DNA from: a virus
Taxonomy: Duplodnaviria; Caudoviricetes
IMG/VR virus record: IMGVR_UViG_3300049138_000106
Location: 1 to 41,273 of that record
Reading direction: 5' to 3' (one strand)
Length of the DNA: 41,273 nt
Position 1 is the stretch's first letter. Each line of letters begins with the position of its first letter. The translations under genes were made by a program, and so were the position numbers. The notes beneath the pieces were generated by a model. It was not told the DNA's origin. It made no database searches and was given only the letters and a program-made list of their open reading frames with translations. Positions 7,190-29,735 of the stretch are shown one piece after another.

Positions 7190-10100
7190 GTGAGCGTGAC
7201 CGGTCCCGGTGGCGATGAGGTCGGTCGCGTAAGTGTCCGGGTGGTCCCGAACACCTCCGGGTTCCGGCGAGAGCTGCAGCGCGAGCTCGAGGCGATCGAG
7301 CGCAGTCTGAAGCTCGAGATCCCGGTCGGGTTCGACGTCGACACGGCCGGGCTGCGCGCCCAGCTGGCAGCACTCGACAACGCTCGAGTCACCATCCCGG
7401 TCGAGGTCGGGGACGGGTCCGAGATCGAGCGCTTGCGTGCTCGACTGCAGGCCCTGGACAACGCGCAGATCACCATCCCGGTCGATCTCGACCTGAGGAA
7501 CCTCGAGCGCGCGGACGCCGTGCTGCGACGGCTCGACGGGCGTTCGGTCCGGATGAACGTCCGGCTCAACGGCGTGCGTCAGGCGATCCGGGACCTCACC
7601 GCCCTGGACGCGATCGTGCGGCGCCTCGACGGGCGCAACATCTCGATCAACATCGACGTGGACGCGGCCGCGGCCGTCGCGCAGATCGCGGCGATCGAGG
7701 CCGCCCTGGTCGGCGTGCGGGCGTCCCTGGGGTCCGTTGGCACCAGCGGTGGAAGGGCTTTCGGCCCCGGTTCGCCACTTCTCAGCGGGGCCACTCAGCT
7801 CGTGGGCCTACTGCTCCAGGTCGGCGCTCTCTCTCTCGGGCTCGCGGTCGCGGGCGCAGCCGTTACCGCGGCCTGGGGGGCGGTCTCGACCGCCGTCCTA
7901 GCCATCCCGGCCGCGCTAGGCCTGGTTGCGGGGCCGATCGCGGCTATCGCGGCCGGCATGGAGGGCATCGAGCGGGCCGCGAAGACGATCAAGCCCCAGT
8001 TTGACGCGCTGCGTGCCTCGGTGGCGGCGACGTTCGAACGCGGCATGATCCCCGTCTTCCGGACGTTGGCGACCACGTTCCCCACCCTGACGGCCGGGCT
8101 GAACGGGATCGCCCAGGCGATGTCCACGGTGGCGTTGCGGACCGCGGAGTGGATCGCCTCGGCGCCCGGCCTGGCTCTGCTGCGGCAGAACATGGAGAAC
8201 ATCCGGGTTGCCGTGCTCGGCATGCAGCCCGGCCTGCAGAACATCCTGTCCTCGATCCTGCAGCTCGGAGCGCAGTCCAGTGTGATGGATGCGCTGCGCG
8301 TGGCAGTTAACGAGTTCGGGGCCTCGTTCCGGGCGAACGTCACTCAGCTCATCGGTGACGGCACGCTCGACCGGGCGATGCGCGGCCTGCGTGACATGCT
8401 CGTTGAGCTCGGCCAGGGCTTCTCCGACCTGGTGAGCAATGGCCTTGAGGTCTTCGCCGCCGCCGCGCCCGGGGTGAACAAGTTCCTCGACTCGCTGTCA
8501 ACCTTTTTCAACCGATTCAACTGGGACAGCCTGGGGCGCTCGGTCGGCAACGTCTTCCGTGGCCTGGGTGAGACTCTCGACGGTGTCGACACCGGCACGA
8601 TTCGTAAGATCGAGGACGCCTTTAGTCGATTAGGCGACCTGTTCCGGGACCAGAAGTTCCAGGACGATCTACGGAAGATGGTCGATGGCCTGCCGGCTGC
8701 TATCGATCAGATCCGTGCCTTCGCCAAGGACTTTGCCGCCCTCGGCGCCGACATCTCGGCGGCCATGCAGGGGTTCAATACCGTTGACCAAAAGTTCCGC
8801 GAGTTCACCGACGGCTTCACTAAGTCGGCGGAGGATCTGGGCAAGGCCCTCGGCCTGCACGGCGAAGAGGGGACCATTGGCGACTGGCTGAGGAAGCTGG
8901 ACGACAGTATCGATGAGGCCCTCGGCATCATCGAGGACGACGGCTACGACATGGGCAAGGCGTTGCGCGAGGGCTTCGAGCGCGGCATGAACGGGATCGA
9001 GCCCCAGTTCGGGTCGGTCGACGGCGAAGGCTGGCTGCCCGACATCGGCGAGCTCCTCAAGGACTGGTTCAGCCCCGAGGACACGGATCTTGACGAGAAG
9101 TTCACGGACCTGGAGACCGAGATCCGGGACGGCATGGACCCGCTGGACGACATCGCCCGGCTGGCCATGGAGCAGGTCAAGCTCGTGGTGCAGACCGGTT
9201 TCGCCCAGCTCCTGCCGATCGCGACCCTTGCCCTGGTCGCCCTGCAGACCGCGTTCACCAACGGCTTCCTGGCCATCGGCGCTGGCGCCTCGCTGGCGAT
9301 GAACACCCTGGTCAACACACTGACCCTGGGCTTCGTCCTCATGCAGACGGCCGTGGCCAACGGCATGCTCCTGCTGCAGACCGCCTTCACTACGGGCTGG
9401 ACCCTGGTCCAGCTGGCGGTGGACACGGGTCTACTGGCGATGCGCACGGCCTTTTCCGAGGCGTTCCTGCAGATGCAGACGGACGCGACCAACGGGATGC
9501 TGCTGTTCGCGGCCGCCATTCTCGCGGGGTTCGCCGTGGTTGTCCCTGCGGTGACCCTGGGGATGACACAGATCGTCCTTGCGGTACAGCTGGGATTCCA
9601 GCAGATCGTGTCCGCGGTGCAGACCGGGATGCAGCAGGTCACCGAGGCCCTGCAGCTGAACTGGGGCCTCGGGGTTTCTGCGACCCAGGCCGCGATGGCC
9701 CAGATGACCGCTGCCGTGCAGGCCGGAATGTCGCAAATGGTGTCTGCAGTGCAGACCGGGGCGCAGCAAATGGTCTCCGAAATGCAGGCCGCCATGGAGC
9801 AGCTGCGTTCTGCGGTGCAGGTCGGGATGTCCGACGCCGAGGCCGAGGTGCGGGCCGGTATTCAGGAGATGAACGCCACTCTCAAAACGGCGCCGCCCTT
9901 GTTCTACGCAGCGGGCCGGGACATGGGACAGGGCTTGGTCGATGGCCTCAACTCCATGCTCGGTGCAGTGCGCGCGGCTGCGGCCGCGCTCGGTGCCGCA
10001 GCGGCGTCGGCCATGCGCGCGGCCGCTCAGGTCCGCTCGCCGAGCAAGCTCACGACCTACTACGGCGAGATGATGGGTGCCGGCCTGGCACTGGGCATGC

Positions 10101-10381
10101 GCCGTTCCGAGTCCGAGGTCGAGCGGGCTGCCCGCTCGCTCGCGAGCACGGTCGTGGTCGGGGTCTCCGGTGTGCAGGACGCGCTCGCGTCCGACGCCTG
10201 GGCGGCCGACTTCAACGCCCGGGTGAACTCCGAACTCGCGCAGAACGACGCGGTCGAGGCGGGCGCGGCAGGGAAGCAGGTCACGATCCACACCGAGATC
10301 CACAACCCGCTCCCCGAGACCGGCAGTGACTCGGTCGCGCAGACGCACCGGCGCCAGGCCGCGATGGGGATCTTCGGATGA
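7190..10381 (+). CDS. Tape measure protein
   Basis: 1063 aa, Ala-rich and helical. EVGRVSVRVVP N-terminus, about 11-aa periodic repeats, RSPSK motif near the C-terminus. Confidence 0.93.
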   Translation: MSVTGPGGDEVGRVSVRVVPNTSGFRRELQRELEAIERSLKLEIPVGFDVDTAGLRAQLAALDNARVTIPVEVGDGSEIERLRARLQALDNAQITIPVDLDLRNLERADAVLRRLDGRSVRMNVRLNGVRQAIRDLTALDAIVRRLDGRNISINIDVDAAAAVAQIAAIEAALVGVRASLGSVGTSGGRAFGPGSPLLSGATQLVGLLLQVGALSLGLAVAGAAVTAAWGAVSTAVLAIPAALGLVAGPIAAIAAGMEGIERAAKTIKPQFDALRASVAATFERGMIPVFRTLATTFPTLTAGLNGIAQAMSTVALRTAEWIASAPGLALLRQNMENIRVAVLGMQPGLQNILSSILQLGAQSSVMDALRVAVNEFGASFRANVTQLIGDGTLDRAMRGLRDMLVELGQGFSDLVSNGLEVFAAAAPGVNKFLDSLSTFFNRFNWDSLGRSVGNVFRGLGETLDGVDTGTIRKIEDAFSRLGDLFRDQKFQDDLRKMVDGLPAAIDQIRAFAKDFAALGADISAAMQGFNTVDQKFREFTDGFTKSAEDLGKALGLHGEEGTIGDWLRKLDDSIDEALGIIEDDGYDMGKALREGFERGMNGIEPQFGSVDGEGWLPDIGELLKDWFSPEDTDLDEKFTDLETEIRDGMDPLDDIARLAMEQVKLVVQTGFAQLLPIATLALVALQTAFTNGFLAIGAGASLAMNTLVNTLTLGFVLMQTAVANGMLLLQTAFTTGWTLVQLAVDTGLLAMRTAFSEAFLQMQTDATNGMLLFAAAILAGFAVVVPAVTLGMTQIVLAVQLGFQQIVSAVQTGMQQVTEALQLNWGLGVSATQAAMAQMTAAVQAGMSQMVSAVQTGAQQMVSEMQAAMEQLRSAVQVGMSDAEAEVRAGIQEMNATLKTAPPLFYAAGRDMGQGLVDGLNSMLGAVRAAAAALGAAAASAMRAAAQVRSPSKLTTYYGEMMGAGLALGMRRSESEVERAARSLASTVVVGVSGVQDALASDAWAADFNARVNSELAQNDAVEAGAAGKQVTIHTEIHNPLPETGSDSVAQTHRRQAAMGIFG

Positions 10382-11268
10382 GCACCTACCCACCGGTCTA
10401 CCCGCCGTTCTACCCGACCACCGACCCGCCGCCACCCCCGGTTCCGGAACAGCTGCTGGTCAACGGGGTCGACCTGGGCTCGTACTGCTACATGACTTCG
10501 GACGTGTCCGGTCTGCTGACCGTGCCGGGTCGGCGTGGCGCGGACTCGGTCGTCCCCGGACGGCACGGGCGGATCCGAACCCCGGGCAAGCGGTTCGACG
10601 CGGGCGAGATCGTGCTGCCGATGTGGGTGGTCGGCGCCCGGCCCGACGGCACCCCGCCGTCCGGTGGCGAAGAACGCGAGTTCTTCCGTCGTCGGGACGA
10701 TCTGTTGCGGCTGTTCCACGCCGACGACGTGGAGCTGTCCTGGCGGCGCCCGGACGGGGTCACGCTCACGACCACGGTCGAGGTCGTGGACGTCATGGAC
10801 TTCACTCGGCGCTGGGCCGAGCCGCTGGCGCAGGTGTCGATCGCGCTGCGCCTCACGGACGCGTTCTGGACCGAGGACGTGGACGTGGCCCAGACCATCA
10901 CCGGGGTCACCGGCACGACCGCGAACCTGACCCTGTTCCAGGGCTCCACGGCCCCGATCGCGGACGCGGTCATCCGGTTCATCGGTCCGGTGAACAACCC
11001 GCGGCTGGCGATCGGTGAGCGGTGGGTGCAGTTCAACGGCGTGATCTCGGCCGGGCGCGAGCTCGTGCTCGAGTGCGAGCACTGGCGGGCGTCGCCCGGG
11101 GTCGGAGACCCCTGGTCGCCGCCGGTCACCCAGGTCTACCGCGAGCCCGGCCCGGCCTGGCTCGAGTTCCCGCCGTCCCTGACCCCGCTGACGGCGACCT
11201 TCACTCACACCGGCGGCGGTAACGCGAGCGTGGAGATTTCAGGGCAGCGGAAATTCCTCACCGCTTAG
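10378..11268 (+). CDS. Distal tail (Dit-like) protein
   Basis: Immediately after the tape measure gene (ATGA overlap); RRGADSVVPGRHG pattern. Extra N-terminal YPPVYPPFYP peptide. Confidence 0.8.
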   Translation: MSTYPPVYPPFYPTTDPPPPPVPEQLLVNGVDLGSYCYMTSDVSGLLTVPGRRGADSVVPGRHGRIRTPGKRFDAGEIVLPMWVVGARPDGTPPSGGEEREFFRRRDDLLRLFHADDVELSWRRPDGVTLTTTVEVVDVMDFTRRWAEPLAQVSIALRLTDAFWTEDVDVAQTITGVTGTTANLTLFQGSTAPIADAVIRFIGPVNNPRLAIGERWVQFNGVISAGRELVLECEHWRASPGVGDPWSPPVTQVYREPGPAWLEFPPSLTPLTATFTHTGGGNASVEISGQRKFLTA

Positions 11269-11851
11269 CGGCGTAGGCCTCTCGCCGCCGTCGATTAATC
11301 TCATCTCGGTTGGCTGCGTTCCACTGGCGCTTCCTGTCCCGGAGGCAAGGCCTGCACTGCCAGTGGCCATCCGCGTTCCGTGCAATCGGGTGGCCACGCT
11401 TGCATGTAGTCCGGCGGTCTCGTCCTCGCTTCAGGTTCTCAGGCTGGTTCACTACCTCGAGGTGCGCCGGGTTGACGCACGCACGATGCGGGCAGGTGGA
11501 ACCGCCCGGGCATGTGGCAGCACGGGTGTGACACGTGTGGTCGACCTGCCTCCCTGTCGGGATGGGTCCGACGTGCTGCTCGTAGGCCCAGCGATGGGCT
11601 AGCTGAGAGCCGGTCCAGCCGTAGCCGTTCCGACGGCGTACATGGCCAGGCCAGGGCCAGCATGCCGACGGGTCGGTTTTGTCGATCAAGGCGAACCATT
11701 CCGTAGGGCTGCGCTTCGGACGGGCGAACTCGTCCAGGCGGTCATGGAACCGCAAGTACTCGTAGCAACGGCGACAGAGTCCCCGGCCGTGGATCTTCGC
11801 CATTTGATCGCATCTCAAGCAGGAACGGTGCGGTCTTTCGCGGGACGTCAC
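11258..11851 (-). CDS. HNH homing endonuclease-like protein (antisense insertion)
   Basis: CWPWPG...GYG...AHRWAYE...VDHTC...CVNPAHLEVV...EN, with flanking CxxC zinc motifs; lower GC than neighbours. Confidence 0.88.
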   Translation of the reverse strand: MTSRERPHRSCLRCDQMAKIHGRGLCRRCYEYLRFHDRLDEFARPKRSPTEWFALIDKTDPSACWPWPGHVRRRNGYGWTGSQLAHRWAYEQHVGPIPTGRQVDHTCHTRAATCPGGSTCPHRACVNPAHLEVVNQPENLKRGRDRRTTCKRGHPIARNADGHWQCRPCLRDRKRQWNAANRDEINRRRREAYAAKR

Positions 11852-11888
11852 ATGGATCAGTTTACATCACTGCGTAGAGAAGGGCGCC

Positions 11889-12332: not shown

Positions 12333-13598
12333 GTGGTCAACCGGTACACCCCGTACGCCTGGGTCGACGGCGAGCTCGTCACGGCCGACCAGGGCGCGAA
12401 CCGCTGGGAGCAGGGGATCGAGGCCGTGGACGTCGGCCTGGACACGGCCGAGGCCCGGCTGGACGCGATCCAGGCGCAGTTGGCGTCGGTCTCGGCCAGC
12501 CGGATGGTCTCCGGAACGACGGCGCAGCGCCCGCAGCCGGCCGTGGGCATGCAGTACTTCGACACCACCTTGAACAAGCCGATCTACGGCGACGGAACCG
12601 CGTGGCGCGACGGGACCGGCGCACTGCTGACCGGCTCGGGTTCGTCGTCCGCGCCGACCGGGATGACCGCGGTCACGCAGTCGGATAACTCGATCGTGCT
12701 GACCTGGAACCCGGTCCCGGGCGCGAGCCATTACAAGCTCTACGAGATCGCTTCGCCGTCCGGCGTGTCCGGGGCGGACAACCTCACCACGACCACCAGC
12801 ACCCGGACCCCGTCCACGATGCGCACCTACGAGTACTGGGTGACCGCGTTCGTCGGCGGCGTGGAGTCGGCCCAGTCCAACCACGCGACCGCGACCCTGC
12901 CCTTCGGCGGTGGTGGAGGCGGCACCGTGGGCGGTTCGCCGGCGCAGGTGCTCGCGCTCGGCGCGGGCGGCGGCAAGTGGAACCTGGGCGTGGGCTACCC
13001 GTCCGGGCACGTGGACATCTCGCCGTCCCAGCTCGAGGGCGGCTGGAGCGAGGCCCCGTACTTCTACACCACCTCGGACGGTGCTCGGGTGCACTTCCAG
13101 GTGCCCATGAACGGCGGCCGGACGAGCTCGAACACGAAGTACCCGCGCACCGAGCTGCGCGAGTACATCGGTAGCTCGAAGGCGGCCTGGAACGGGTCGT
13201 CGGGCACGCACGTGCTGTCCTACCGGGCGACGGTCATCCACATGGAGGACGACAAGCCCGAGATGGTCATCGGGCAGATGCACGACGGGTCGGACGACAC
13301 CCTGCAGATCCGCTGCGAGGGCACCACCTGGCGGGCGTCGATCAACGGCACCGAGCACTCCACGACCCTGGGCAACTTCCCCTGGGGGACCGAGGTCGCG
13401 ATCGAGATCCGGGTGTCCAACGGGACCTTGACCATCAAGGTCAACGGCACCACGAAGATCACGGCCAACCCGGGGTACGGGTCGGGTCAGTACTTCAAGC
13501 TGGGCTGCTACGCCCAGCAGAACTCGACCGACCAGAACAACCCGGCCAACGGGTACGCGTCCTGCCAGATCCGCGACGTCGTGGTCAGTCACTCCTGA
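12333..13598 (+). CDS. Fibre-anchored FN3 + PL7-like (alginate lyase family) protein
   Basis: N-terminal YTPYAWVDG..NRWEQG anchor plus coiled coil, then FN3 (LTWNPVPGASHYKLY). PL7 motifs YPRTELRE, QMH, YFKLGCYAQ. Confidence 0.82.
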   Translation: MVNRYTPYAWVDGELVTADQGANRWEQGIEAVDVGLDTAEARLDAIQAQLASVSASRMVSGTTAQRPQPAVGMQYFDTTLNKPIYGDGTAWRDGTGALLTGSGSSSAPTGMTAVTQSDNSIVLTWNPVPGASHYKLYEIASPSGVSGADNLTTTTSTRTPSTMRTYEYWVTAFVGGVESAQSNHATATLPFGGGGGGTVGGSPAQVLALGAGGGKWNLGVGYPSGHVDISPSQLEGGWSEAPYFYTTSDGARVHFQVPMNGGRTSSNTKYPRTELREYIGSSKAAWNGSSGTHVLSYRATVIHMEDDKPEMVIGQMHDGSDDTLQIRCEGTTWRASINGTEHSTTLGNFPWGTEVAIEIRVSNGTLTIKVNGTTKITANPGYGSGQYFKLGCYAQQNSTDQNNPANGYASCQIRDVVVSHS

Positions 13599-13599
13599 G

Positions 13600-13773
13600 C
13601 TACGAGCCCGATTTGGGCGTGGGATGCCCGTCGCGTCGGCGAATTCGGATCACTACACATTCGGCTGAGCAGTAGTTCTCACCGTCTTCGCGCCAGATGA
13701 CGCCGTCGGAGTCATCGCCCGGCCAGGCCCCGAAGTCCTCGTGGCACTCAGGACAGATCTTGGTTTCGCCCAT
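13600..13773 (-). CDS. 57-aa zinc-finger-like protein (not in ORF track)
   Basis: MGETKICPECHEDFGAWPGDDSDGVIWREDGENYCSAECVVIRIRRRDGHPTPKSGS. CxxC...YCSxxC motif; TACTCT lies 6 nt upstream of the ATG. Confidence 0.7.
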   Translation of the reverse strand: MGETKICPECHEDFGAWPGDDSDGVIWREDGENYCSAECVVIRIRRRDGHPTPKSGS

Positions 13774-13793
13774 GACCACAGAGTAGGAGCCGC

Positions 13794-15434
13794 GTGGCCA
13801 TCTACCCGCTCGCGTTCCCGGACGGGACCCCGTACCCGGTCATCCCGGCCGGGACCAGCGTGGTCAACGTGTCGACGTCGAACCAGCTGGTCACTGCACT
13901 GTCCAACGCGGTGGCCGGGCAGCGGATCGTGCTCGCCAACGGGACCTATTCCGGGGCGTTCTCGATGTCCGGGCGGACCGGCACGGCGACGGCCGGGATC
14001 TCGGTCGAGGCGGCCAACGTCGGTGGCGCGCTGATCGCGTCCGGGTCGTCGTTCCGGATCACCAACTGCACCTACGTGACTGTGTCCGGTCTGATGTGGA
14101 ACTGGCAGGGGAGTGGCGAGACGTTCCAGTTCCGCGGCAACTCCCACCACTGCCGCCTGACCCGCTGCACGTTCGGGCCGACGTCGCACAGTGAGTCGAG
14201 CGACGTCCAGACCTGGATCTTCGCCGGGGACGACTGCTACCACATCCGGATCGACCACAACGAGATCCGGAACAAGGGCACGTCCGGCAACGGCGTGCGG
14301 GTCTACGGCTCGTTCGCCAAGGTCGACGCCGGGCAGGGTTCGTCCGCGGGCTGCCGGTGGGTGCGGATCGATCACAACATCTTCCGCTCGATCAAGCCCG
14401 AGGTCGGCAACGACAAGGAGCCGGTGCGCTACGGCGTGTCGACCATGTCGCGCACCATCGCCAACGGGGTGATCGAGCGCAACGTCTTCCACGACTGCGT
14501 GTGCGAGCCCGAGGTCATCTCGGTGAAGATGGGCGGCATCCGGACCACCGGTAACACGATCCTGCAGAGCATCGGCGGGCCGGTGATCCGACACGGCACC
14601 AACTCGATCATGTCCGACAACTACGTGATCGACGACCCGGCCGGCAGCGGCCCACCGCCCGCCCCGACGCAGACCCTCGGCGTGGGCGGCGTGGAGACCC
14701 CGCCCGGCGCGATCCTCACGACCGGGAACTCCACCTCGACGCTGACCATCACCACGTCGGGGACGGCGTCGGCGCAGCGGGTGTACGACGGGCAGGGCTT
14801 CACCGTCAAGAAGATCGACATCCAGGCGAACTACGTCACGGTGCAGAACTTCCGCATCCGGGGCGCGGGCAACTCCGGGGTGTACTCGGTCGGCACCGGG
14901 AATGTGATCCAGAACAACGACATTGCCCAGGTCAACGAGGGCGGCGTCGGGGACATCAACGGGATCACGTTCTTCGGCGACGGCCACAAGATCCTCTACA
15001 ACGCGATCGGTGAGTCCGACTTCCTCGCGACGGGCGACCTGGCGGGCAGTCACACCGACGGGATCCAGACCTGGAACACGCCCTCGAAGCGGTCCAGCTC
15101 GTCCGTCACGATCAAGGGCAACCACATCACCGGCCCGCCGCAGTCGGACGAGCGCTACATCCACCAGGGCGTGATGGCCCAGGGCAAGGCGGCCACGGAC
15201 GGCGGCGGGGGCGGGACCGGGACGAGCACGGGCTGGCTGGTCGAGGGCAACTACTTCAAGACGTACGGCAACCAGTGCCTGAAGTTCGACGACATCCACA
15301 ACGTGCAGATCACGAAGAACCACTTCGACGGGGCCTGCAACAAGATCGTGGCCACCGGCGACTTCTCAACCGGCATCACCTTCGGCAACGACAACATCAT
15401 CACCGGCAACTACGGATCGCAGGTCGGGGACTGA
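13794..15434 (+). CDS. N-terminal part of PL6/chondroitinase-B-like lyase fused to a second right-handed beta-helix domain
   Basis: AGGAG RBS. IVLANGTY, RIDHN, GNDKEPVRYG, EPEVISVK, IRHG are PL6 Ca/Lys/Arg motifs. Then linker PAGSGPPPAP and a beta-helix with HTDGIQ. Confidence 0.8.
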   Translation: MAIYPLAFPDGTPYPVIPAGTSVVNVSTSNQLVTALSNAVAGQRIVLANGTYSGAFSMSGRTGTATAGISVEAANVGGALIASGSSFRITNCTYVTVSGLMWNWQGSGETFQFRGNSHHCRLTRCTFGPTSHSESSDVQTWIFAGDDCYHIRIDHNEIRNKGTSGNGVRVYGSFAKVDAGQGSSAGCRWVRIDHNIFRSIKPEVGNDKEPVRYGVSTMSRTIANGVIERNVFHDCVCEPEVISVKMGGIRTTGNTILQSIGGPVIRHGTNSIMSDNYVIDDPAGSGPPPAPTQTLGVGGVETPPGAILTTGNSTSTLTITTSGTASAQRVYDGQGFTVKKIDIQANYVTVQNFRIRGAGNSGVYSVGTGNVIQNNDIAQVNEGGVGDINGITFFGDGHKILYNAIGESDFLATGDLAGSHTDGIQTWNTPSKRSSSSVTIKGNHITGPPQSDERYIHQGVMAQGKAATDGGGGGTGTSTGWLVEGNYFKTYGNQCLKFDDIHNVQITKNHFDGACNKIVATGDFSTGITFGNDNIITGNYGSQVGD

Positions 15435-17569
15435 TGGCCACGTTCGGCACGACCATCGGCTCGGGCGGGATCCGGTTCTACGACGCCGACCACGAGATCG
15501 CCTACAACTACATCCAGGGCGTGTACGGCGGCAACTACCAGGGTCCCCTGCTCCTCGACACGGGCGACGCCGAGGGCAGCTCGACGAACCTGTCCGGGCA
15601 CTGGCGTGTGATCGGCGCGATGGTCGAGCGCAACGTGCTGGTGAACAACCCCGAGGGCATCCGGATCGGCGACAACTACTCGTCGACCCCGCGCGACTGC
15701 ACGATCCGGGACAACATCGTGGTCGACGCCGACACCGGCGCGGCCATCACCCAGCGGATCGCCCCGTCGAACACGGTGATGACCAACAACGCCTACTACG
15801 CCAACACCGGCGCGGCCGGCATGACCCAGGGCGCGGACGGGATCTGGCGCAAGCCCGGCTACGGGCCGCGCCTGACCTACCTGGGCCTGGCCGACGTCGG
15901 CCCGGCCGGGGACCTGGGCGACACCGACGGCACCGGGGCCGAGGTCGGCGGGGGCGGCACACCGGTCGCGGTGCCGGGCGACGTGCTGAACATCGGCGCC
16001 GAGGCCGGTGAGAACCACTTCAGCCTGCAGTACGCCGAGAACGGCGCGGCCACGATCTCGACCGCGTCCCTGGCTAAGATCGCCGCCGGGTTCTCGGCCG
16101 ATCCGTACTTCAAGGTCGTCACGAACACCATCAACGACGTAGCGGTGCCCGCGGTCCAGTTTCAGGTCCGCGCCGACGCGGCCACCACGAGCGGCTCCAC
16201 CGACCCGCGTTCGGAGCTGCGTGAGACTCGCGCGGACGGGTCCGAGATGGCGTTCGACGCCATGCAGGGCGACCACACGCTGCACACCCGAGTGCGCATC
16301 ACGCACCTGCCCGCGGCCGACCCCGAGGTCGTGGTCGCGCAACTGCACAACGGCGTGACCGGCGACCGGATCGCCATCCGGACCCAGTTGATCAGCGGGG
16401 AGACCAAGCTCCTGTGCCGGATCAACGGCGTCCAGGCCGATCCTCGCCTCGACGAGTTCTACGTGACCGGCGACGAGTTCGAGGTCGAGATCCGGGTCCT
16501 CGACGGCGGCCGGGTGGAGGTCTACTACCAGGGCTCCACGCTGCCGATCAACACCGGACAGCTCGAACCGTCCGGGGCGGGCGCGTCCTGGTATTGGAAG
16601 GTCGGCGCCTACGCGGCCTTCAACGAGACCACCGTCTCGGCCACCGAGTACGTCTCGGTCGAGCACCGGGACCTGTGGGTCACCCACGGCGGGGCCCGGG
16701 TCAGCGCGGGCCCGGACCTGTCCGTGGTCCGCGGTCAGCCGGTCACCATCCCCGCGGTCGAGGTTGGCCTGACCGGGGTCACCGCGCGGCGCTGGCGGAT
16801 CGTGTCCCAGCCGGCGCCGCCCGGTCCCGGCCCGGGTCCTAGTCCGGATCTGACCCAGGCCGCGGTCCGGCACGGCTGGGGCACGCCGCACGCGCTGTCG
16901 GACGAGTTCGACTACGAGGGCACGCCGAACTCGACCAAGTGGAAGCTCCCGGGCGCGGACTGGGCCGGCCACAACGGCAACGGTCGTCGGCGGCCGGAGC
17001 GTCAGACCGTGACCGGCGGCAAGTTCATCATGACCGGGCTGCAGAACGGCGATACCGGGTGGTGTCAGCACCGGCTCGACGTGCAGTACGGGCGCTGGGA
17101 GGCGCGCGTCCGGTCCTTCGCCGGAGCGCCGTCCGCGGGCGAGCCGGACAACACCTCAAACGGGAACGACTACCACCCGCTCCTGTTGCTCTGGCCGCAG
17201 TCGAACTCGCGCCAGACCGACGGCGAGTACGACTTTATGGAGAACGGCGCGCCGGGCGAGTCCACGCTCGAGGCCTTCATCCACTACCCGCACCCGCAGA
17301 CGTCCGTGGTGCAACAGGAGCACTTCGAGCGACCCAACTCGTCCTTGCACCTGTTCCACAACATCGCCATGGAGTGGACCAGCCAGCACATCAAGGGGTT
17401 CTTCGACGGCGTCGAGTGGTTCTCGGTCTCGGGAGGCGCCAACAGCGTGCGGCGTGACATCCAGACCATGCCCGCGGGCCACCTGGTGATCCAGCTCGAC
17501 AACTTCGACGGGACGAACCAGACCCCGGCCACGATGGAGCTGGAATGGTTCCGTTATTACAGTCTGTAG
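15434..17569 (+). CDS. Multidomain protein: PL6 C-terminal part + PL7-like + half PKD/Ig domain + GH16-like
   Basis: Start ATG 15434 (TGATG coupling). GGIRFYDADHEIAYNY; PRSELRE/QLH/YWKVGAY; SAGPDLSV...WRIVS; DEFD, YGRWEAR, EYDFME (GH16 ExDxxE). Confidence 0.8.
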   Translation: MATFGTTIGSGGIRFYDADHEIAYNYIQGVYGGNYQGPLLLDTGDAEGSSTNLSGHWRVIGAMVERNVLVNNPEGIRIGDNYSSTPRDCTIRDNIVVDADTGAAITQRIAPSNTVMTNNAYYANTGAAGMTQGADGIWRKPGYGPRLTYLGLADVGPAGDLGDTDGTGAEVGGGGTPVAVPGDVLNIGAEAGENHFSLQYAENGAATISTASLAKIAAGFSADPYFKVVTNTINDVAVPAVQFQVRADAATTSGSTDPRSELRETRADGSEMAFDAMQGDHTLHTRVRITHLPAADPEVVVAQLHNGVTGDRIAIRTQLISGETKLLCRINGVQADPRLDEFYVTGDEFEVEIRVLDGGRVEVYYQGSTLPINTGQLEPSGAGASWYWKVGAYAAFNETTVSATEYVSVEHRDLWVTHGGARVSAGPDLSVVRGQPVTIPAVEVGLTGVTARRWRIVSQPAPPGPGPGPSPDLTQAAVRHGWGTPHALSDEFDYEGTPNSTKWKLPGADWAGHNGNGRRRPERQTVTGGKFIMTGLQNGDTGWCQHRLDVQYGRWEARVRSFAGAPSAGEPDNTSNGNDYHPLLLLWPQSNSRQTDGEYDFMENGAPGESTLEAFIHYPHPQTSVVQQEHFERPNSSLHLFHNIAMEWTSQHIKGFFDGVEWFSVSGGANSVRRDIQTMPAGHLVIQLDNFDGTNQTPATMELEWFRYYSL

Positions 17570-17596
17570 TGATTTGAAGGCGAGGAGCTACAGCCT

Positions 17597-20500
17597 GTGA
17601 CCACGCCGATCGACAACGACGACGAACTCAACTGGGTAGCGCCGAGCACGCTCGGCAAGTACGTCATCCGGTACGAGGTCGAGTCCGACCAGGGCACGTT
17701 CGCCGACGACGTCGACATCACGGTCATCGACCTGCCGACCGGCCCGCAGACCGTCGATCTGGACTCGATCCCGTCCCGGGCCGCGGTCGGCGAGCCGACG
17801 TTCACGGTGCCCCCGCCCACGGGCGCGACGCCGACCGTCCTGGGTGACAACACCGTCCTCGGACAGACCTTCTACCTGGGCTACGCCCCGCCGCCCGGTG
17901 GTCCGCAGAAGACCTATCCGGACGTCGGCCTGTATCCCGGGCACACCACGTTCCCGGGCAGCGGCCTGCCGGCGTCGGAAGGGCCGCAGACCGTCGACCT
18001 GGGCTCGATCCCGTCCAGGGCCCTGGTCGGCGAACCGACGTTCATCGTCGACCCGGTCCCCGAGCCGATCATCCTGGACCTCGACTCGATCCCGTCGAAC
18101 CTGCGGATGGGCGCGCCCTCGTTCACGATCGGGGCCGCTCCGCCGGATCAGCCGATCACCGACCTGACCATCTCGCTGTACGCGGTCACCCCGGACGGAA
18201 ACGTCGCGCTGCCGGACTTCGAATCCCTGGAACTGTCGCCGCTGCGCAACTCCGGCGGGTCGATCACGCTCGACTACCCGCCGACCGGCGTGAACTTCGC
18301 CGTGCTGCGCGAGGCCATCACCGGCGGCCGGGACATCGAGGTCGAGATCTGGACCTCCGGCACCTCGGCGGGCGCGCTGCGCGGCTACCTGGACCAGGCC
18401 GAGGGCGACGACACGGCCGAGGCTGGGGCCTGGAAGTTCGCCGGCCGGTTCCTGGGCGGCCGGATGGACGAGGCCGTGGTCCTGCCGCAGGACCCGGGCC
18501 CGCTCGTGCCCGACAACGACGACAACCCGGACAACGACAAGCACGTCAACGAGAAGCGCGAGCTGGTCTACTCGAACGCGACCGCGGGCACGGTCATGTT
18601 GACCGCGCTGCGGATCGTGCAGGAGCACGGCTGGCTCACCGACATCGTCTGGGACTTCACCGGGACGCACGACTCCGACGGCGTGGCCTGGCCGCAGGTG
18701 CTCACGACGAAGTTCTCGCCCGGCGCGAGCATGAAGCAGCTCCTGGACCGGCTGGTCGCGCTGCAGCTCGCCGAGTGGGACGTGCAGTGGAACGGCGCAC
18801 ACCGGGTGCTGCGGATGTGGGTCCCGGAGGGCCGCGGGGACGACCTGAGCCTGCTCGTGCCGCCGGTGGTGCTGCGACACGGCCAGAACGTGCTCGACGC
18901 CCCCCGCCGCTGGTCGGTCCGGGAGTCCGGGACCGATGTCCTGGTGGCGGGCGACGAGGGGCTCTACGCCGAGGCGTCGGACCCGGCCGCGGTCACGCGC
19001 CGAGGACGGCGAATCGCCCGGTTCGTCAGCGCCAACAACCTGATCGAGCAGAACGCGGTCACCGCGTACGCGATCAACCAGCTGCCGGTCATCACCACGC
19101 CGCTGCACGAGGTCGCGCACGGGATCGGGTTCCTACCGGGGACACCGCGCCCCCTCGTGACATACAACGTGGGCGACTGGGTGCTGTCCGAGACCGCCGG
19201 CGAGTACGAGCGGCTGCGGGTGGTGCAGTGGACGCTGTCGGTGGACAAGGACCACCAGCTGTCCGGCACGGTCACGCTCAACGACACGATCACCGACCAG
19301 GTGACGCGGCTGAAGGCGCAGCTCGAGGCCATCACCGCGGGCGAGACCGTGGTCGGCACGTCCACGCCACCGTCCGGGTCGCTCTCGGACATCACGCCCC
19401 CGGCCGCGCCCGAGGGCCTGACGGTGTCCTCGATCGCCTACCAGGACCCGGCGCACACGAACACGCTCGCGAGCGTCACCGTGGGCTGGTTGCCGGTCCG
19501 GTTCAACGCGGACGGGTCGAACTATCCGCAGGTCCAGGCGGCGCGCTACATCATCATCCGGCTGGAGAACGTCGACCCGGAGCGCCCGGACACGGCGATC
19601 AGCGAGGACTGGACCTGGCCGGAGTGCCCGCAGGTCGTGGTCGACTACAACGACCTGCTACTCGCCGCGTGGGCGGCCGCGGGCAAGCCCGGGGCCGCCC
19701 CGGTCGACTACGCCGCGCAGGCCGCGTGGCTTCAGTCCTACGTGGACGAGTTCAGCGCCACCCCGACCGCGACCGACGACGTGGCCGGGTACCAGGTCCG
19801 CTACGCCTACATCGGACTGTCCCAGGTCGGCGGCCTGCCGTCCTCGGACCCGTTTCCGGACGATGAGCGGTTCTACTACGAGGCCACGCCGACGGGCGGG
19901 ACCACGGCCACGTCCTACACCTTCGGCGGTGTCGAGGGCGGCGCGAACGTCCGGATCGAGGTCCGGGCGTTCGACCGGTCCGGCAACTTCGGGCCGTGGG
20001 CGTCGATCGGGCACGACACCGCCAGCGACGACACCCCACCGCCCCGCCCGGGCCCGCCCGGGCTGAGCGTGTGGTTCCGGACCCTCGACATCACCTGGAA
20101 CGGGCTGGGCCTGATCGGCGAGCCGATGCCGGTTGACTTCGACCACGTCGAGGTGTGGGTCAGCAGCAGCGCGGACTTCTCGTCCGCGTCCTCGACCGCG
20201 AGCCAGGCCACCGCGTTCGATCCGTTGAACCCGAACCCGCAGCACGTCGCGAACCTGTATGCGGCCGGCACGCACAACCAGCCGGACATCGCGCACGGGG
20301 TCGGTTACTACGCGGCGCTCCGCGCGGTGGACCGCAGCGGGAACGTCAGCGAGATGTCGCAGCAGGCGGGCCCGGCCACGGCCGAGCAGCTGTTCCCCGA
20401 CGACTTGCGCGATCAGATCATCAACGACCCGAACATGATCGCGCGCGAGACCATCGGCACCCTGCACGTGGTCGACGGGGCGATCATCAACGCGAAGATC

Positions 20501-21529
20501 GCCAACCTGGCGGTCAACGACGCCAAGATCCAGGATCTGAACGTCGGCAAGCTCCGCTCGGGCACGATGATCGCCCAGGTCACGATCTCCGGGAAGTTCC
20601 GCACCCACGAGTCCGACGCGGCGAACCGGGTCGAGTTCGACGCGGCCGGGCTGCGGCTGTATCGCGGCGCGACCGTGGTCGGCAACTGGGACGTGGCCAC
20701 CGGTGACATGCTGATCACCGGAACCTGGCGCACTGGTGTCACCGGCGAGCGGGTCGAGGGCCACCCTGACGGGACCCTGCGGTGGTACCCGCAGTCCGGG
20801 TCGAACTACAGCCAGATGTCCAACGTCGGGTCGGACGTGGTCTGGCGCGGCCCGGTCGCGGCCGACGGACGCTCCGGGCGGGTCAACGTCAACGCGCTCG
20901 GCGTGGGGCTGAACTACAGCGCCGAGTCCGAGATCCCGGACCGGCTGCGCGCGGAGATCCTGGTGACCGACCGACGGACCCGCATCACCGCGCCGTTCAC
21001 CGCGTTCGAGGTCGACGGGCGTTACACCAACCCGGCCGGCGGCGTGCACCGCGTGCAGTTCTCCCAGCTGTCCTCGTCCGGCACCACGATGCCGTACTCG
21101 TATCTGTCCTACGGGGTCTCGTCCTCGTCCGGGCGCGGTGGCATGTTCGGCAATGGATCGGGGTTCAAGTTCGAGGCCGGGAATATGCTGGTCACAGACG
21201 ACTCACTGAACTCGTTCGGCCCGATCAAGACGAGCGACCTAGTCGAGACATCGTCACGCAAGGCGAAGCGCGACATCGCGCCCGCTCGTTCAGTGCTCGA
21301 CCCGAAGAGGGTCATCAAGGCCGCGAGGGCGCGGTCGTATCGCTACAAGAGCGATCCCGTCGACGCGCCTCCGCGGTTCGGGGTGATCGCTGAGGAGCTC
21401 CCTGTCGAGCTGCAGCGAATGACCCCTGATGGCAAGGGCGGTCTGGAGCTGTCTGTCTCGCTCGGGTCGCAGATCGGGTTGCTGTGGGCGGCCGTTGAAC
21501 AGTTGATCGATGAGAGGGAAGTGACCTGA
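17597..21529 (+). CDS. Large minor tail / tail tip (central fibre) protein with FN3 domains and C-terminal intramolecular chaperone (peptidase S74-like)
   Basis: GAGGAG RBS, 1310 aa. Siphovirus hub-like region, FN3 repeats (VRAFDRSGN, LRAVDRSGN), IINAKIANLAV repeats, TSSRKAK...FGVIAEEL...LWAAVEQL. Confidence 0.88.
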   Translation: MTTPIDNDDELNWVAPSTLGKYVIRYEVESDQGTFADDVDITVIDLPTGPQTVDLDSIPSRAAVGEPTFTVPPPTGATPTVLGDNTVLGQTFYLGYAPPPGGPQKTYPDVGLYPGHTTFPGSGLPASEGPQTVDLGSIPSRALVGEPTFIVDPVPEPIILDLDSIPSNLRMGAPSFTIGAAPPDQPITDLTISLYAVTPDGNVALPDFESLELSPLRNSGGSITLDYPPTGVNFAVLREAITGGRDIEVEIWTSGTSAGALRGYLDQAEGDDTAEAGAWKFAGRFLGGRMDEAVVLPQDPGPLVPDNDDNPDNDKHVNEKRELVYSNATAGTVMLTALRIVQEHGWLTDIVWDFTGTHDSDGVAWPQVLTTKFSPGASMKQLLDRLVALQLAEWDVQWNGAHRVLRMWVPEGRGDDLSLLVPPVVLRHGQNVLDAPRRWSVRESGTDVLVAGDEGLYAEASDPAAVTRRGRRIARFVSANNLIEQNAVTAYAINQLPVITTPLHEVAHGIGFLPGTPRPLVTYNVGDWVLSETAGEYERLRVVQWTLSVDKDHQLSGTVTLNDTITDQVTRLKAQLEAITAGETVVGTSTPPSGSLSDITPPAAPEGLTVSSIAYQDPAHTNTLASVTVGWLPVRFNADGSNYPQVQAARYIIIRLENVDPERPDTAISEDWTWPECPQVVVDYNDLLLAAWAAAGKPGAAPVDYAAQAAWLQSYVDEFSATPTATDDVAGYQVRYAYIGLSQVGGLPSSDPFPDDERFYYEATPTGGTTATSYTFGGVEGGANVRIEVRAFDRSGNFGPWASIGHDTASDDTPPPRPGPPGLSVWFRTLDITWNGLGLIGEPMPVDFDHVEVWVSSSADFSSASSTASQATAFDPLNPNPQHVANLYAAGTHNQPDIAHGVGYYAALRAVDRSGNVSEMSQQAGPATAEQLFPDDLRDQIINDPNMIARETIGTLHVVDGAIINAKIANLAVNDAKIQDLNVGKLRSGTMIAQVTISGKFRTHESDAANRVEFDAAGLRLYRGATVVGNWDVATGDMLITGTWRTGVTGERVEGHPDGTLRWYPQSGSNYSQMSNVGSDVVWRGPVAADGRSGRVNVNALGVGLNYSAESEIPDRLRAEILVTDRRTRITAPFTAFEVDGRYTNPAGGVHRVQFSQLSSSGTTMPYSYLSYGVSSSSGRGGMFGNGSGFKFEAGNMLVTDDSLNSFGPIKTSDLVETSSRKAKRDIAPARSVLDPKRVIKAARARSYRYKSDPVDAPPRFGVIAEELPVELQRMTPDGKGGLELSVSLGSQIGLLWAAVEQLIDEREVT
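17741..18130 (+). repeat. Three about 23-aa repeats in the tail tip N-terminus
   Basis: GPQTVDLDSIPSRAAVGEPTFTV (17741), GPQTVDLGSIPSRALVGEPTFIV (17981), EPIILDLDSIPSNLRMGAPSFTI (18062). Confidence 0.85.
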
Positions 21530-22022: not shown

Positions 22023-23180
22023 GTGCCGACCTCGTTCCCCACCTTCGTCGACGTCCCCGATGGTGAGCCGCCCGAGCCTGGCACGCCGGACGTGGACGCG
22101 GCCTACCTGAACTCGGTCAACGTCGCGGTCAACACGCTCGAAAACACGCTGCCGGGCAAGGTCGACGCCAACGACCTGGCCACGGTGGCGATCACCGGTG
22201 CCTATACCGACCTGATCGGCCCGCCCGCGATCCCGAACAGCCCCGACGACATCGGCGCGCAACCCGCCGGGGACTACGCCACCAACACCGCGCTGGCCGG
22301 GAAGGCGAACACGGCCCACACGCACGCGATCACCGACCTGACCGCGACCGGGACCCGGGACGCGACCACGTTCCTGTCCGGCAACAACACCTGGAGCGTG
22401 CCGCCGGGCTCCTACACCGACGAGCAAGCCCGGGACGCGATCGCGGCCGCGTTGGTGGCCGGTACGAACATCACGATCACGCCGGACGACGTCGCGAACA
22501 CCATCACGATCTCCGCGTCCGGCACCGGGGGTGCGCAGCCCGAGGACGCGGACCTGACCGCGATCGCCGCGCTCACCGCGGCCGACGACGACATCATCCA
22601 GCGCAAGACTGGGGCCTGGACCAATCGCACCATGGCCCAGCTCAAGACGGATCTGGCGCTCACCGCAGCCGACGTCAGCCTGGGCAACGTCGTCAACGCC
22701 GCCCAGGTGCAGTTGGGCACCGTCGACGCCAAGGGCGACCTGATCGTCGGCACGGCGGCCGACACGGTGGCCCGGGTCGCGGTCGGGGCCAACGGCCGCA
22801 CGCTGGTCGCCGCCTCGGCGCAGACCGCGGGCGTGGAGTGGTCGGCGAACCCGGCCCCCGCCACCGTCCCCCTTGCTGATGTCGCCTCGGTAGCCCTGGA
22901 TGCGGCAGCCGGGAAGGTGTTCAAGCTGACTGCGACTGGAAACCGTACTATCGCCGTGCCCACGAATGCGGCCGACGGGCGCGGGATCGTCATCGCGCAC
23001 ACCGCGTCCGGGGCGGCCCGCACGCTGGCCCTCACGACCGGTACGTCGGGCGCGTTCGCGTTCGGCAGCGACATCACCGCGTTGACCGAGACCGCGGTCG
23101 GGACCACGGACTACATCGGCGCGGTCTACGACGCGACCTCCGCCCGGTGGCGGGTCATCAGCTACGCGAAGGGCTACTAG
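22023..23180 (+). CDS. Tail fibre-like protein
   Basis: Mosaic of short fibre motifs (AHTHAITDL, YTDEQARDAI, QPEDADLTAIAAL, AKGDLIVG) with a C-terminal beta domain. Confidence 0.75.
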   Translation: MPTSFPTFVDVPDGEPPEPGTPDVDAAYLNSVNVAVNTLENTLPGKVDANDLATVAITGAYTDLIGPPAIPNSPDDIGAQPAGDYATNTALAGKANTAHTHAITDLTATGTRDATTFLSGNNTWSVPPGSYTDEQARDAIAAALVAGTNITITPDDVANTITISASGTGGAQPEDADLTAIAALTAADDDIIQRKTGAWTNRTMAQLKTDLALTAADVSLGNVVNAAQVQLGTVDAKGDLIVGTAADTVARVAVGANGRTLVAASAQTAGVEWSANPAPATVPLADVASVALDAAAGKVFKLTATGNRTIAVPTNAADGRGIVIAHTASGAARTLALTTGTSGAFAFGSDITALTETAVGTTDYIGAVYDATSARWRVISYAKGY

Positions 23181-23183
23181 TCG

Positions 23184-24392
23184 GTGGCCACCTTCGGCAA
23201 GACGACCGATGGCACTGGACAGTCGCAGTCGTCCACCGACCGAAAGAAGGTCAGCTCAGCTGTCCCCGCCAGTTCGGGGACGGCCACCTCGATCACCATC
23301 CGCGGCCGGGTCACGGCCGAGAGCACGGTGATCAAGGGTGTGATCTACGCCGACAACGCGGGCGCGCCCGGTGCCCTGCTCGCGGTGTCGGATGAGATCA
23401 CGGTCAACTCCACCACCGAGCAGAACTGGACCGGCGCGCTCACCGGCGGTAACCAGATCGCCATCACCTCGGGCACGACGTACTGGATCGGCTGGATTCA
23501 GCAGGACCCGGGCTCCGGGTTCTTCGAGATCTCGCGCGACACTACGGCGGGCCTGTCGCAGACCAACACCGACACCTATGCCGACGGCCCGACGAACCCG
23601 TTCGGCGTCCCCTCGGCCGAGGCCGGGCCGGTGGACGTGTTCGTCACCTACACCGAGCCGTCCGGTGGCGGCTCCGCCGAGCCGCTCATCCGCGGAGCCA
23701 CCGGCGCGAGCGGTGTCGGGAACGGCGCGTCGGCGGTCGTGACCAAGCCGTCCGGGCTGGCCGTGGGCGACCTGCTGCTCGCGTTCCAGGTCGGCGACAA
23801 CGACGCCGCGCTGGCGAACATGACCGGCCCGTCGGGCTGGGCGACGATCGCATCCCAGGCCGCCGCCGTCGGCGGCCAGCCCGCGATGAAGGTATGGCAG
23901 CAGGTGGCCACGTCCACCGAGACCGCCGCGTCGTCGTTCACGTTCTCGGCCGGGTCCGGGATCCAGTGTTCGGCCGGCATCCTCGCCATCACGGCGGACA
24001 CGTTCCTCGCGTCCGAGCCGCTGTTCGTCGGCGCGGTGTTCCAGATCAACGCCGCGTCCTCGACCTCGCACACCGCCCCGTCGATCGGCACCGGCGTCAC
24101 CAACGGCCTACTCGTCACCGCGCACTCCACCGACCAGCACGGGGCGGCGTCCTGCTCGTACACGCCGCCCACCGGCATGACCGAGCGCGTGGACACTGCC
24201 GCCTCGTCCGGCTACACCTGTCTGGAGATCAACACATTGGTGTTGACCTCGGCGGGCGCGACCGGCGCGAAGACCGCGACCTGCACGGCGAACCGCCCGT
24301 CGACCTGCGTCTCCCTGATCGTCGCCCCGGCGACGACCGCGAGCGGGATCAACCTGGCGCGACGGACCGGCGGCTTCCTGCAGCTGCTCTGA
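23184..24392 (+). CDS. Minor tail / receptor-binding-like protein (two beta-rich domains)
   Basis: Ser/Thr/Ala/Gly-rich; KPSGLAVGDLLLAF pattern; ends TGGFLQLL. Confidence 0.7.
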   Translation: MATFGKTTDGTGQSQSSTDRKKVSSAVPASSGTATSITIRGRVTAESTVIKGVIYADNAGAPGALLAVSDEITVNSTTEQNWTGALTGGNQIAITSGTTYWIGWIQQDPGSGFFEISRDTTAGLSQTNTDTYADGPTNPFGVPSAEAGPVDVFVTYTEPSGGGSAEPLIRGATGASGVGNGASAVVTKPSGLAVGDLLLAFQVGDNDAALANMTGPSGWATIASQAAAVGGQPAMKVWQQVATSTETAASSFTFSAGSGIQCSAGILAITADTFLASEPLFVGAVFQINAASSTSHTAPSIGTGVTNGLLVTAHSTDQHGAASCSYTPPTGMTERVDTAASSGYTCLEINTLVLTSAGATGAKTATCTANRPSTCVSLIVAPATTASGINLARRTGGFLQLL

Positions 24393-24419
24393 CCGAACAC
24401 CAACGACGAAGGGAAAGCC

Positions 24420-24875
24420 GTGCCGGAGACGTTCACGCCCCGACCCACCCCGTGGGTGGACGGGGTCGGTGGCGGCACCCCGATCACCGCCGCCGAACTC
24501 AACCGGCTCGAGGCCGGCGTCGAGTCGATGGACGACCGGGTGACCGCGCTCGAGGACTCCGCCGCCGTCATCACCGCGAGCATCCAGACCGCCCCGTACA
24601 CGCTGGGGCTGGCCGACGCCGGGAAGCTGATCGAGATGAACTCGGGGTCGGCCACCACCCTGACGGTCCCGCCGGACTCGTCCGCCGCGTTCCCGGTCGG
24701 CACCGTGATCGAGGTGACCAGGCTCGGCGCCGGGTCGGTGACCCTGGTCGCCGGTTCCGGGGTGACCATTCGCGTCCCCGCCGGCTCCTCGCTCATCCTG
24801 CGCGCCCAGTACTCAACGGCAGGCCTGCGCAAGCGGGCGACCAATGAGTGGATCGCGTCGGGCGACCTGGCGTGA
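24420..24875 (+). CDS. Short fibre/adaptor protein
   Basis: GAAGGGA RBS. Anchor PWVDG..GTPITAAELNRLEAG and C-terminal domain ending LRAQYS...EWIASGDLA. Confidence 0.75.
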   Translation: MPETFTPRPTPWVDGVGGGTPITAAELNRLEAGVESMDDRVTALEDSAAVITASIQTAPYTLGLADAGKLIEMNSGSATTLTVPPDSSAAFPVGTVIEVTRLGAGSVTLVAGSGVTIRVPAGSSLILRAQYSTAGLRKRATNEWIASGDLA

Positions 24876-25915: not shown

Positions 25916-25948
25916 GCGCTCCGGCTCCTTCGGAAGGACTCTTCATCG

Positions 25949-27277: not shown

Positions 27278-27296
27278 CACGAAGGACGGTTCACGA

Positions 27297-29695: not shown

Positions 29696-29735
29696 AACGT
29701 CCCTGTTCGTAGGGGGATCAACCGCAAGGGGAGAC

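What the first reader, a model, noticed from the sequence alone, without database searches (positions are those of the whole stretch)
13794..17730. Daisy-chained split domains: a candidate system for hanging a branched enzyme array on the phage tail
Seen: gene A (13794) = [PL6 N-part]-Pro/Gly linker-[beta-helix]-stop. Gene B (15434) = [PL6 C-part]-[PL7]-[PKD N-part]-Pro/Gly linker-[GH16]-stop. Gene C (17597, tail tip) = [PKD C-part]-tail protein. The same design occurs twice: a domain is cut, a linker plus about 0.8 kb of enzyme domain continues from the cut, and the remainder restarts with its own translation signal (TGATG coupling; GAGGAG RBS). Neither A nor B has the N-terminal virion anchor carried by the other enzymes here. 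Inference: the halves refold in trans, so A binds B and B binds C. This would give a branched, cellulosome-like glycanase tree that a single chain could not form. I know of no description of this in phages, but cannot confirm novelty.
Basis: partly seen in the sequence, partly recalled or inferred. Interest (0 to 1): 0.92.

Follow-up and report, generated by a model that had tools for sequence, protein, structure and literature searches.

The report
Split-domain enzyme chain on phage tail
A soil phage encodes two protein domains each cut in half across neighbouring tail genes, a layout kept in many relatives; the halves likely snap back together, which would hang a chain of predicted sugar-cutting enzymes on the tail tip by a docking route not found in the papers searched.

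Summary
Observation confirmed. In this 41-kb high-GC siphophage a PL6 lyase beta-helix is divided between genes A and B, and a K319L-like PKD domain between B and the Tal-like tail-tip gene C; an enzyme-like passenger plus stop follows each cut. Relatives show intact, fully fused (PL6...GH16-Tal, one ORF), in-frame nested and split forms; two different PL6 cut loops have matching halves; PL6 catalytic and substrate-site residues and PKD core residues stay near-invariant on both sides; PKD halves occur together or not at all. Best reading (0.75): the halves refold in trans and tether A-B to the tail tip. Binding is untested: the complex predictor was unavailable. This scan noted each split separately on other DNA (unchecked notes e1-6197264, e1-5948703); here both are chained. 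No paper found describing it. New variant of branched phage depolymerase arrays; interest 0.7.

The parts
13794..15434 (+). Gene A (546 aa): PL6 N-half, linker, passenger beta-helix, stop
13794..14636 (+). PL6 N-half (aa 1-281) with K245, R266, H267 and the N206/E238/E240 positions; ends after the NYVID strand
14637..14681 (+). Pro/Gly linker (pLDDT under 50 at aa 281-296)
14667..15431 (+). Passenger right-handed beta-helix (PF13229-like in relatives), substrate unknown; elsewhere fused to minor tail proteins or nested in PL7/GH16 loops
15432..15436 (+). TGATG stop/start overlap between A and B
15434..17569 (+). Gene B (711 aa): PL6 C-half, PL7, PKD N-half, linker, GH16, stop
15434..15937 (+). 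PL6 C-half (aa 1-168) with the GGIR arginine R14 and the HWRV loop
15965..16690 (+). PL7 lyase domain; R/E/R, QxH and YxKxGxY positions intact in this window
16691..16813 (+). PKD N-half (aa 420-460)
16844..17566 (+). GH16 domain, E598/D600/E603 invariant in 19 of 19 aligned relatives
17582..17587 (+). GAGGAG ribosome-binding site of gene C, after tandem TAG TGA stops of B
17597..17737 (+). PKD C-half (aa 1-47) at the start of gene C
17597..21529 (+). Gene C (1310 aa): PKD C-half, short repeats, Tal-like hub (aa 185-590), fibre region, C-terminal S74-type chaperone
12333..13598 (+). Upstream gene: N-terminal anchor, FN3, PL7 (separately anchored enzyme)
10378..11268 (+). Distal tail protein Dit (context; follows the tape measure gene 7190-10381)

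Best explanation
Two domains are each encoded in halves on neighbouring tail genes, and the halves likely refold together in trans, so that A would dock on B through the completed PL6 lyase and B would dock on the tail-tip protein C through the completed PKD domain. Shown: the gene anatomy, the intact, fused, nested and split relatives, and conservation on both sides of each cut. Inferred origin: in this phage group enzyme modules are repeatedly inserted into a few surface loops; an in-frame insertion gives a nested domain, an insertion that keeps its stop (with a restart behind it) gives a split domain, tolerated because the halves still associate. Inferred result: each Tal subunit carries PKD-[GH16]-PL7-PL6-[beta-helix], an array that likely clears acidic polysaccharide and glucan around an actinobacterial host; PL6 activity would need both A and B, because the catalytic Lys/Arg/His lie in A and a conserved substrate-site Arg lies in B.
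For: (1) Fused reference forms: L019 encodes PL6-beta-helix-GH16-Tal as one 2410-aa ORF; L005 and L018 fuse PL6 C-half-GH16-Tal, so the PL6 split is their only link to A; intact PKD domains precede a minor tail (phrog_1885) domain in P0135 and P0228. (2) Matching cuts: 16 of 59 hits are PL6 N-half plus beta-helix cut at site 1 and 2 are cut one loop later; 10 of 29 hits start at site 1 and 2 start exactly at the later site. Both sites are variable loops in solved PL6 structures. (3) K245 in 21 of 21, R266 and H267 in 20 of 21 split N-halves; R14, H20, N25, H56, W57, R58, N67 in 16 of 16 site-1 C-halves. R14 lies 24 residues after the catalytic Arg in AlyGC, the spacing of BcelPL6 Arg-294, a 98% conserved +2-subsite residue (PMC6879350, passages; correspondence inferred from spacing). 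(4) PKD halves are ungapped with 9 of 39 and 10 of 41 invariant columns over 19 and 20 sequences; both halves present in 5 of 5 loci with separate genes, neither in 3 of 3 fused loci nor in 2 distant loci without enzymes. (5) Passengers occur on either side of the PKD cut: 3 of 20 tail-tip proteins and L016 carry a 220-aa domain before the C-half; P0070 ends 3 residues after the N-half. (6) AlphaFold: A is two confident domains with a disordered linker, pTM 0.53, so the passenger is not modelled as a cap; the natural nested PKD[GH16] of L008 folds with both PKD halves confident, pTM 0.71. (7) Every C-half with DNA in hand has an RBS-like run or a stop/start overlap.
Against: No direct evidence of binding or of virion location. 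Split-split pairs have higher pN/pS than intact-intact pairs (0.74 vs 0.54 for N, 0.70 vs 0.47 for C), and the first rung after the cut is less conserved in split forms (59 vs 71% identity at B 21-40); synonymous sites are near saturation (GC3 0.94-0.99) and split pairs are more distant, so this is inconclusive, but some relaxation is not excluded. P0077 and P0078 have intact PL6 with neither PKD half nor Tal fusion, and P0074 lacks them too, so not every member shows an attachment route. One split N-half has lost the Arg-His pair. The same beta-helix also occurs in PL7-containing proteins outside this tail context (L010, L011).
Confidence: 0.75

Rival explanations
1. The halves do not re-associate. 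A and B are free enzymes (for example released at lysis), each truncated domain is capped by its neighbour, and the orphan halves are folding aids or slow-decaying remnants.
For: No anchor on A or B; a related beta-helix occurs in non-tail proteins; higher pN/pS in split pairs; members without a visible attachment route.
Against: Substrate-site and core residues are invariant in C-halves only 49-93% alike; cut sites match across two loops; PKD C-half is kept on tail-tip proteins only where an N-half is upstream; the A model shows no capping by the passenger.
Confidence: 0.09
2. Only one joint works as docking: for example A and B form a soluble PL6 complex that binds the tail weakly or is shed, with the short PKD halves giving a transient link.
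For: The PKD halves are only about 41 and 47 residues; no affinity estimate exists; shedding could be useful after capsule clearance (inference).
Against: PKD split is the commoner state (20 of 22 tail-tip hits) and persists with intact PL6; core columns are invariant.
Confidence: 0.08
3. The chains are rejoined during translation: stop readthrough from B into C, or a -1 frameshift from A into B, yields nested single chains like L008.
For: B and C are in one frame in the window and in L004 (single TGA); nested chains are viable in other phages.
Against: The window has tandem stops and an RBS; L006 and L015 have out-of-frame overlaps and L016 a separate out-of-frame start; L005, L018 and L021 have 170-335 nt spacers between A and B; no Rfam hit and no flanking repeat at the junctions.
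Confidence: 0.06
4. Assembly or gene-calling artefact.
For: The stretch lies on two abutting contigs in the likely source run (break at 14698/14699).
Against: Both junctions lie inside one contig with no differences; another study's contig bridges the A/B junction; six other loci show the PL6 split and four the PKD split.
Confidence: 0.01

Closest known systems
Branched receptor-binding protein systems (KP32/KP34, G7C, K1-5; T4gp10-like branching domain plus conserved peptide)
   Same: A second enzyme without its own anchor is held on the virion through a first protein (PMC13352976 abstract; PMC6872550 passages).
   Different: There a dedicated domain binds a short peptide; here the joint would be two halves of one fold, one of them an enzyme cut across its substrate cleft, and two joints are in series.
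Evolved Dit/Tal proteins of Gram-positive siphophages
   Same: Carbohydrate-active modules inserted into loops of tail-tip proteins between linkers (PMC9437275 and PMC8540738 passages).
   Different: Those insertions are in frame in one chain; here in-frame and stop-bearing versions coexist and the host domains are PL6, PL7, GH16 and PKD.
PL6 lyases (AlyGC 5GKD, Pedsa0632 7O84, BcelPL6 6QPS, chondroitinase B)
   Same: Fold, Lys/Arg/His and acidic calcium-site positions conserved.
   Different: All solved members listed are single chains; here the helix is on two genes.
Donor-strand complementation and engineered split-domain tags (recalled, not read here)
   Same: A fold completed by strands from another chain.
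   Different: The PKD is cut near its middle rather than missing one strand; no conserved Lys is present in the N-half alignment for an isopeptide bond.
Cellulosome cohesin-dockerin scaffolds (recalled)
   Same: Several glycanases gathered on one carrier.
   Different: No repeated interchangeable docking modules; no cohesin or dockerin Pfam hit.

Membership tests
PL6 lyase | Right-handed beta-helix matching PL6 sequences and structures | tested here: met
   Pfam PF14592; Foldseek top hits all PL6; intact relative P0064 matches 7O84 at 1e-26
PL6 lyase | Catalytic Lys/Arg, His and acidic calcium-site positions | tested here: met
   K245, R266, H267, N206, E238, E240 align with AlyGC and are conserved
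PL6 lyase | Whole helix with both caps in one polypeptide | tested here: not met
   Divided between A and B
PL6 lyase | Beta-elimination activity | not testable with these tools
   needs assay
K319L-like PKD domain (PF22352) | Both halves homologous to the two halves of intact family members | tested here: met
   50 of 60 strong C-half hits have an adjacent N-half; such proteins match PF22352
K319L-like PKD domain (PF22352) | Halves form one folded domain in trans | not tested
   complex predictor unavailable; only the natural in-cis nested form was modelled
PL7 | PF08787 match and catalytic-site motifs | tested here: met
   motif names recalled
GH16 | Jelly-roll fold and E-x-D-x-x-E motif | tested here: met
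   relative's model Z 21.7, rmsd 2.8, 208 aligned to 4BOW; motif invariant in 19 of 19
Tal / tail-tip hub protein (gene C) | Sipho_Gp37/Prophage_tail-like hub downstream of tape measure and Dit, with C-terminal chaperone | tested here: met
   Atlas score 0.97 to Sipho_Gp37 clusters; gene order and phrog_31; Peptidase_S74 weak, 6F45 match
Anchor-branched RBP system | T4gp10-like branching domain and short conserved docking peptide | tested here: inconclusive
   no such Pfam/PHROG/NCBIfam hit on A, B or C; no profile-profile search for it was run
Split intein | Intein halves at the junctions | tested here: not met
   no intein family in the Pfam scan of A, B, C; junction sequences belong to the host folds
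Programmed readthrough or frameshift | Conserved frame relation and recoding signal | tested here: not met
   frames and spacers differ among relatives

The most novel reading that the evidence does not exclude
Soil actinophages use naturally split domains, including an enzyme cut across its substrate cleft, as a general, repeatedly re-invented and selected clip system: every permissive loop becomes a port where either half can carry new cargo, so enzyme arrays on the tail tip are built and swapped gene by gene, and PL6 activity switches on only on assembly.
Probability: 0.4. Interest if true: 0.85.

Novelty: new variant of a known kind. Interest (0 to 1): 0.7.

Why it matters
If the halves bind, this is a third way to put several enzymes on a virion, beside fusion and dedicated docking domains, and it shows a natural route from gene fusion through loop insertion to a multi-subunit complex, with all stages present among living relatives. 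It supplies natural split-protein pairs (an approximately 90-residue PKD and a split lyase with two alternative cut sites) that are directly testable as non-covalent display tags. It also warns annotators that 'truncated' lyase and PKD fragments in phage tail operons need not be pseudogenes.

Tried and rejected
Complex prediction of B(418-711) with C(1-52): not available, queue full, so trans binding has no verdict. VIA-align search of the A model could not be queued, so the passenger beta-helix is not assigned to a family; Foldseek on the whole model was filled by PL6 hits. No match for A or B among 50,697 GenBank phages, 3 weak matches for C. P0070 and P0078 loci were not found among viral contigs. 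pN/pS was uninformative through saturation. PKD half profiles gave only weak PDB and Atlas hits. Alignment A4 misplaced the short PKD C-halves and was discarded. No RNA holder listed. No Rfam match and no repeats flanking the inserts: splicing and excision rejected. No in-frame beta-helix-in-PL6 chain was seen, but the protein searches stopped at 956 and 1245 residues, just short of such a chain, so its absence is not shown. Literature searches with no paper on this design: 0 papers; listings only, none on split docking by title or abstract start; PMC13370021 checked by passages. The library lacks most subscription papers, and no supplements were read.
Full report
Context. The window is a whole 41,273-base virus record with a siphophage structural operon: capsid, tail tube, tape measure (7190), Dit (10378), a phrog_644 gene, an anchored FN3-PL7 gene (12333), then A, B and C. 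C has a Tal-like hub at residues 185-590 and a chaperone-like C-terminus. The runs that hold the stretch best are labelled soil metagenomes. One relative lies in a Blastococcus metagenome bin, a weak pointer to an actinobacterial host.

The observation. A (13794-15434) matches only the first 251 of 426 positions of the PL6 model and continues through a Pro/Gly linker into a second beta-helix. B starts at the overlapping ATG 15434 (GC3 0.99 downstream, 0.36 upstream in that frame) with the rest of PL6, then PL7, 41 residues of PKD, a linker and GH16. C starts at 17597, nine bases after GAGGAG, with the last 47 residues of PKD. Reads support the sequence: one contig of the likely source run covers 14699-17998 without differences, and another study's contig bridges the A/B junction; a third run holds a relative with the intact PL6 junction.

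Relatives show every stage. Searches returned 18 loci; one duplicates another (L014), two encode the same protein (L008, L009), two have only the beta-helix (L010, L011) and one is truncated (L020). Of the rest, six show the PL6 split with both genes visible (L005, L007, L012, L017, L018, L021) and seven have intact PL6 (L004, L006, L008, L013, L015, L016, L019). L019 is one ORF from PL6 through GH16 to the Tal. L005 and L018 fuse the PL6 C-half and GH16 to the Tal and have no PKD. L004, L006, L015 and L016 have intact PL6 and the PKD split. L008 has GH16 in frame inside PKD at the same loop. L016 has the beta-helix in frame inside PL7 and an extra domain in front of the PKD C-half.

Protein searches extend this. 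Of 59 hits to the passenger helix, 16 are PL6 N-half plus helix cut at site 1 and 2 are cut one loop later. Of 29 hits to the PL6 C-half, 10 start at site 1, 2 start at the later site, 15 are intact and 2 are the longer N-halves. Ten of these are doubly split like B. Of 22 tail-tip hits (one being the window's own), 20 carry the PKD C-half, 17 at the start and 3 behind a 220-residue domain; 2 distant ones lack it. None of 19 proteins with the PKD N-half has the C-half in the same chain. These searches were length-limited.

The PKD assignment. A profile of six C-halves searched against 1.84 billion representatives gave 1482 hits; the best 150 were listed. Among the 149 new proteins, 60 strong near-full-length hits in 27 proteins were examined: 50 have an N-half match ending 3-12 residues upstream, 5 have one 237-352 residues upstream and 5 have none. 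Four of the 'far' cases enclose an enzyme in frame: PF14099 lyase (P0113, P0146), PL7 (P0156) and GH16 (P0251); the fifth appears to be a weakly scoring intact domain. Intact copies match PF22352, and two precede a minor tail protein domain in one chain. So this loop is an insertion hotspot.

Evolution. On a tree of 40 PL6 N-halves (21 split, 18 intact, 1 unclassed) the state changes at least 8 times, 5 of them forced by well-supported branches; with three long rows dropped, a single split clade is rejected (20 vs 17 rows, p-AU 3e-83, quick tree). The window's N-half is 92% alike to an intact one (P0071). Repeated splitting, repeated rejoining and recombination between phages all give this pattern; the direction is not resolved. 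The two cut sites imply at least two origins (inference).

Constraint. Catalytic K245 is kept in 21 of 21 split N-halves and R266/H267 in 20 of 21; R14, H20, N25, H56, W57, R58 and N67 in 16 of 16 site-1 C-halves. By spacing in the AlyGC alignment, R14 corresponds to BcelPL6 Arg-294, reported at subsite +2 and 98% conserved; the same paper notes that beta-helices need end caps to avoid oligomerising (PMC6879350, passages). A substrate-site residue kept on a chain with no catalytic residues is most simply explained by re-association. PKD halves are ungapped, with invariant core columns, at 60-62% mean identity against 65-74% for flanking domains. Against: pN/pS is higher in split than intact pairs and sites are saturated, and the first rung after the cut is less conserved in split forms.

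Models. A folds as two confident domains with a disordered linker, pTM 0.53. The natural nested PKD[GH16] of L008 folds with confident PKD halves, pTM 0.71; contacts could not be viewed. The trans complex could not be run.

Mechanism and limits. I favour trans refolding and tethering to the Tal (0.75). Recoding is unlikely because frames and spacers vary. P0074, P0077 and P0078 show no attachment route and remain unexplained.

Known systems. Branched RBP systems use a branching domain and a conserved peptide (PMC13352976, abstract; PMC6872550, passages). Evolved Dit/Tal carry in-frame inserted modules (PMC9437275, PMC8540738, passages). Nine of my ten searches concerned phage tails or split domains; none listed a paper on split-domain docking in phage tails. 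Earlier AI notes of this scan describe the PKD split and the PL6 split separately on other genomes; I saw them after forming this reading and do not count them as evidence.

Verdict. Real, conserved and unusual; mechanism inferred, binding untested. New variant of branched phage enzyme arrays; interest 0.7.

Noticed in passing
window 11270-11880 (- strand); L006 about 7975-8970; L018 3083-3353: HNH-endonuclease-like reading frames or remnants on the minus strand between tail genes (motif recalled).
   Followed up: no
window 13600-13793; L005, L013, L017, L019, L021: Small minus-strand ORFs in operon spacers, followed by a shared CACAGAGTAGGAGCC-like block and GTG; the block precedes A in some phages and B in others, and the B start (MATFG) resembles the A start (MATFP) of one subgroup, a possible route by which the C-half gained its start.
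   Followed up: partly
P0195, residues 1-45: An unrelated phage-like protein begins with a PKD C-half at the same loop: possibly an independent split, or a mis-called start.
   Followed up: no
alignment A7, column of B Y393: The PL7 tyrosine position is Tyr in only 12 of 19 relatives; some PL7 domains may bind without cutting.
   Followed up: no
P0066, P0075, P0068, L016, L013: Different domains of 170-250 residues are inserted in frame in the same PL7 loop.
   Followed up: partly
L008 5269-10338: A 1680-aa chain carrying GH46 chitosanase, PL7, PKD[GH16] and PL6 in another phage group.
   Followed up: partly
window 17738-18139: Short GPQTV-type repeats between the PKD C-half and the Tal hub, variable in number among relatives; probably a stalk.
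   Followed up: no
window 29658-30997: Excalibur-domain protein next to a sortase gene in a phage.
   Followed up: no
window 22023-27866: Further putative tail genes, two with the same N-terminal anchor as gene 12333, one a pectate-lyase-like tail spike.
   Followed up: partly
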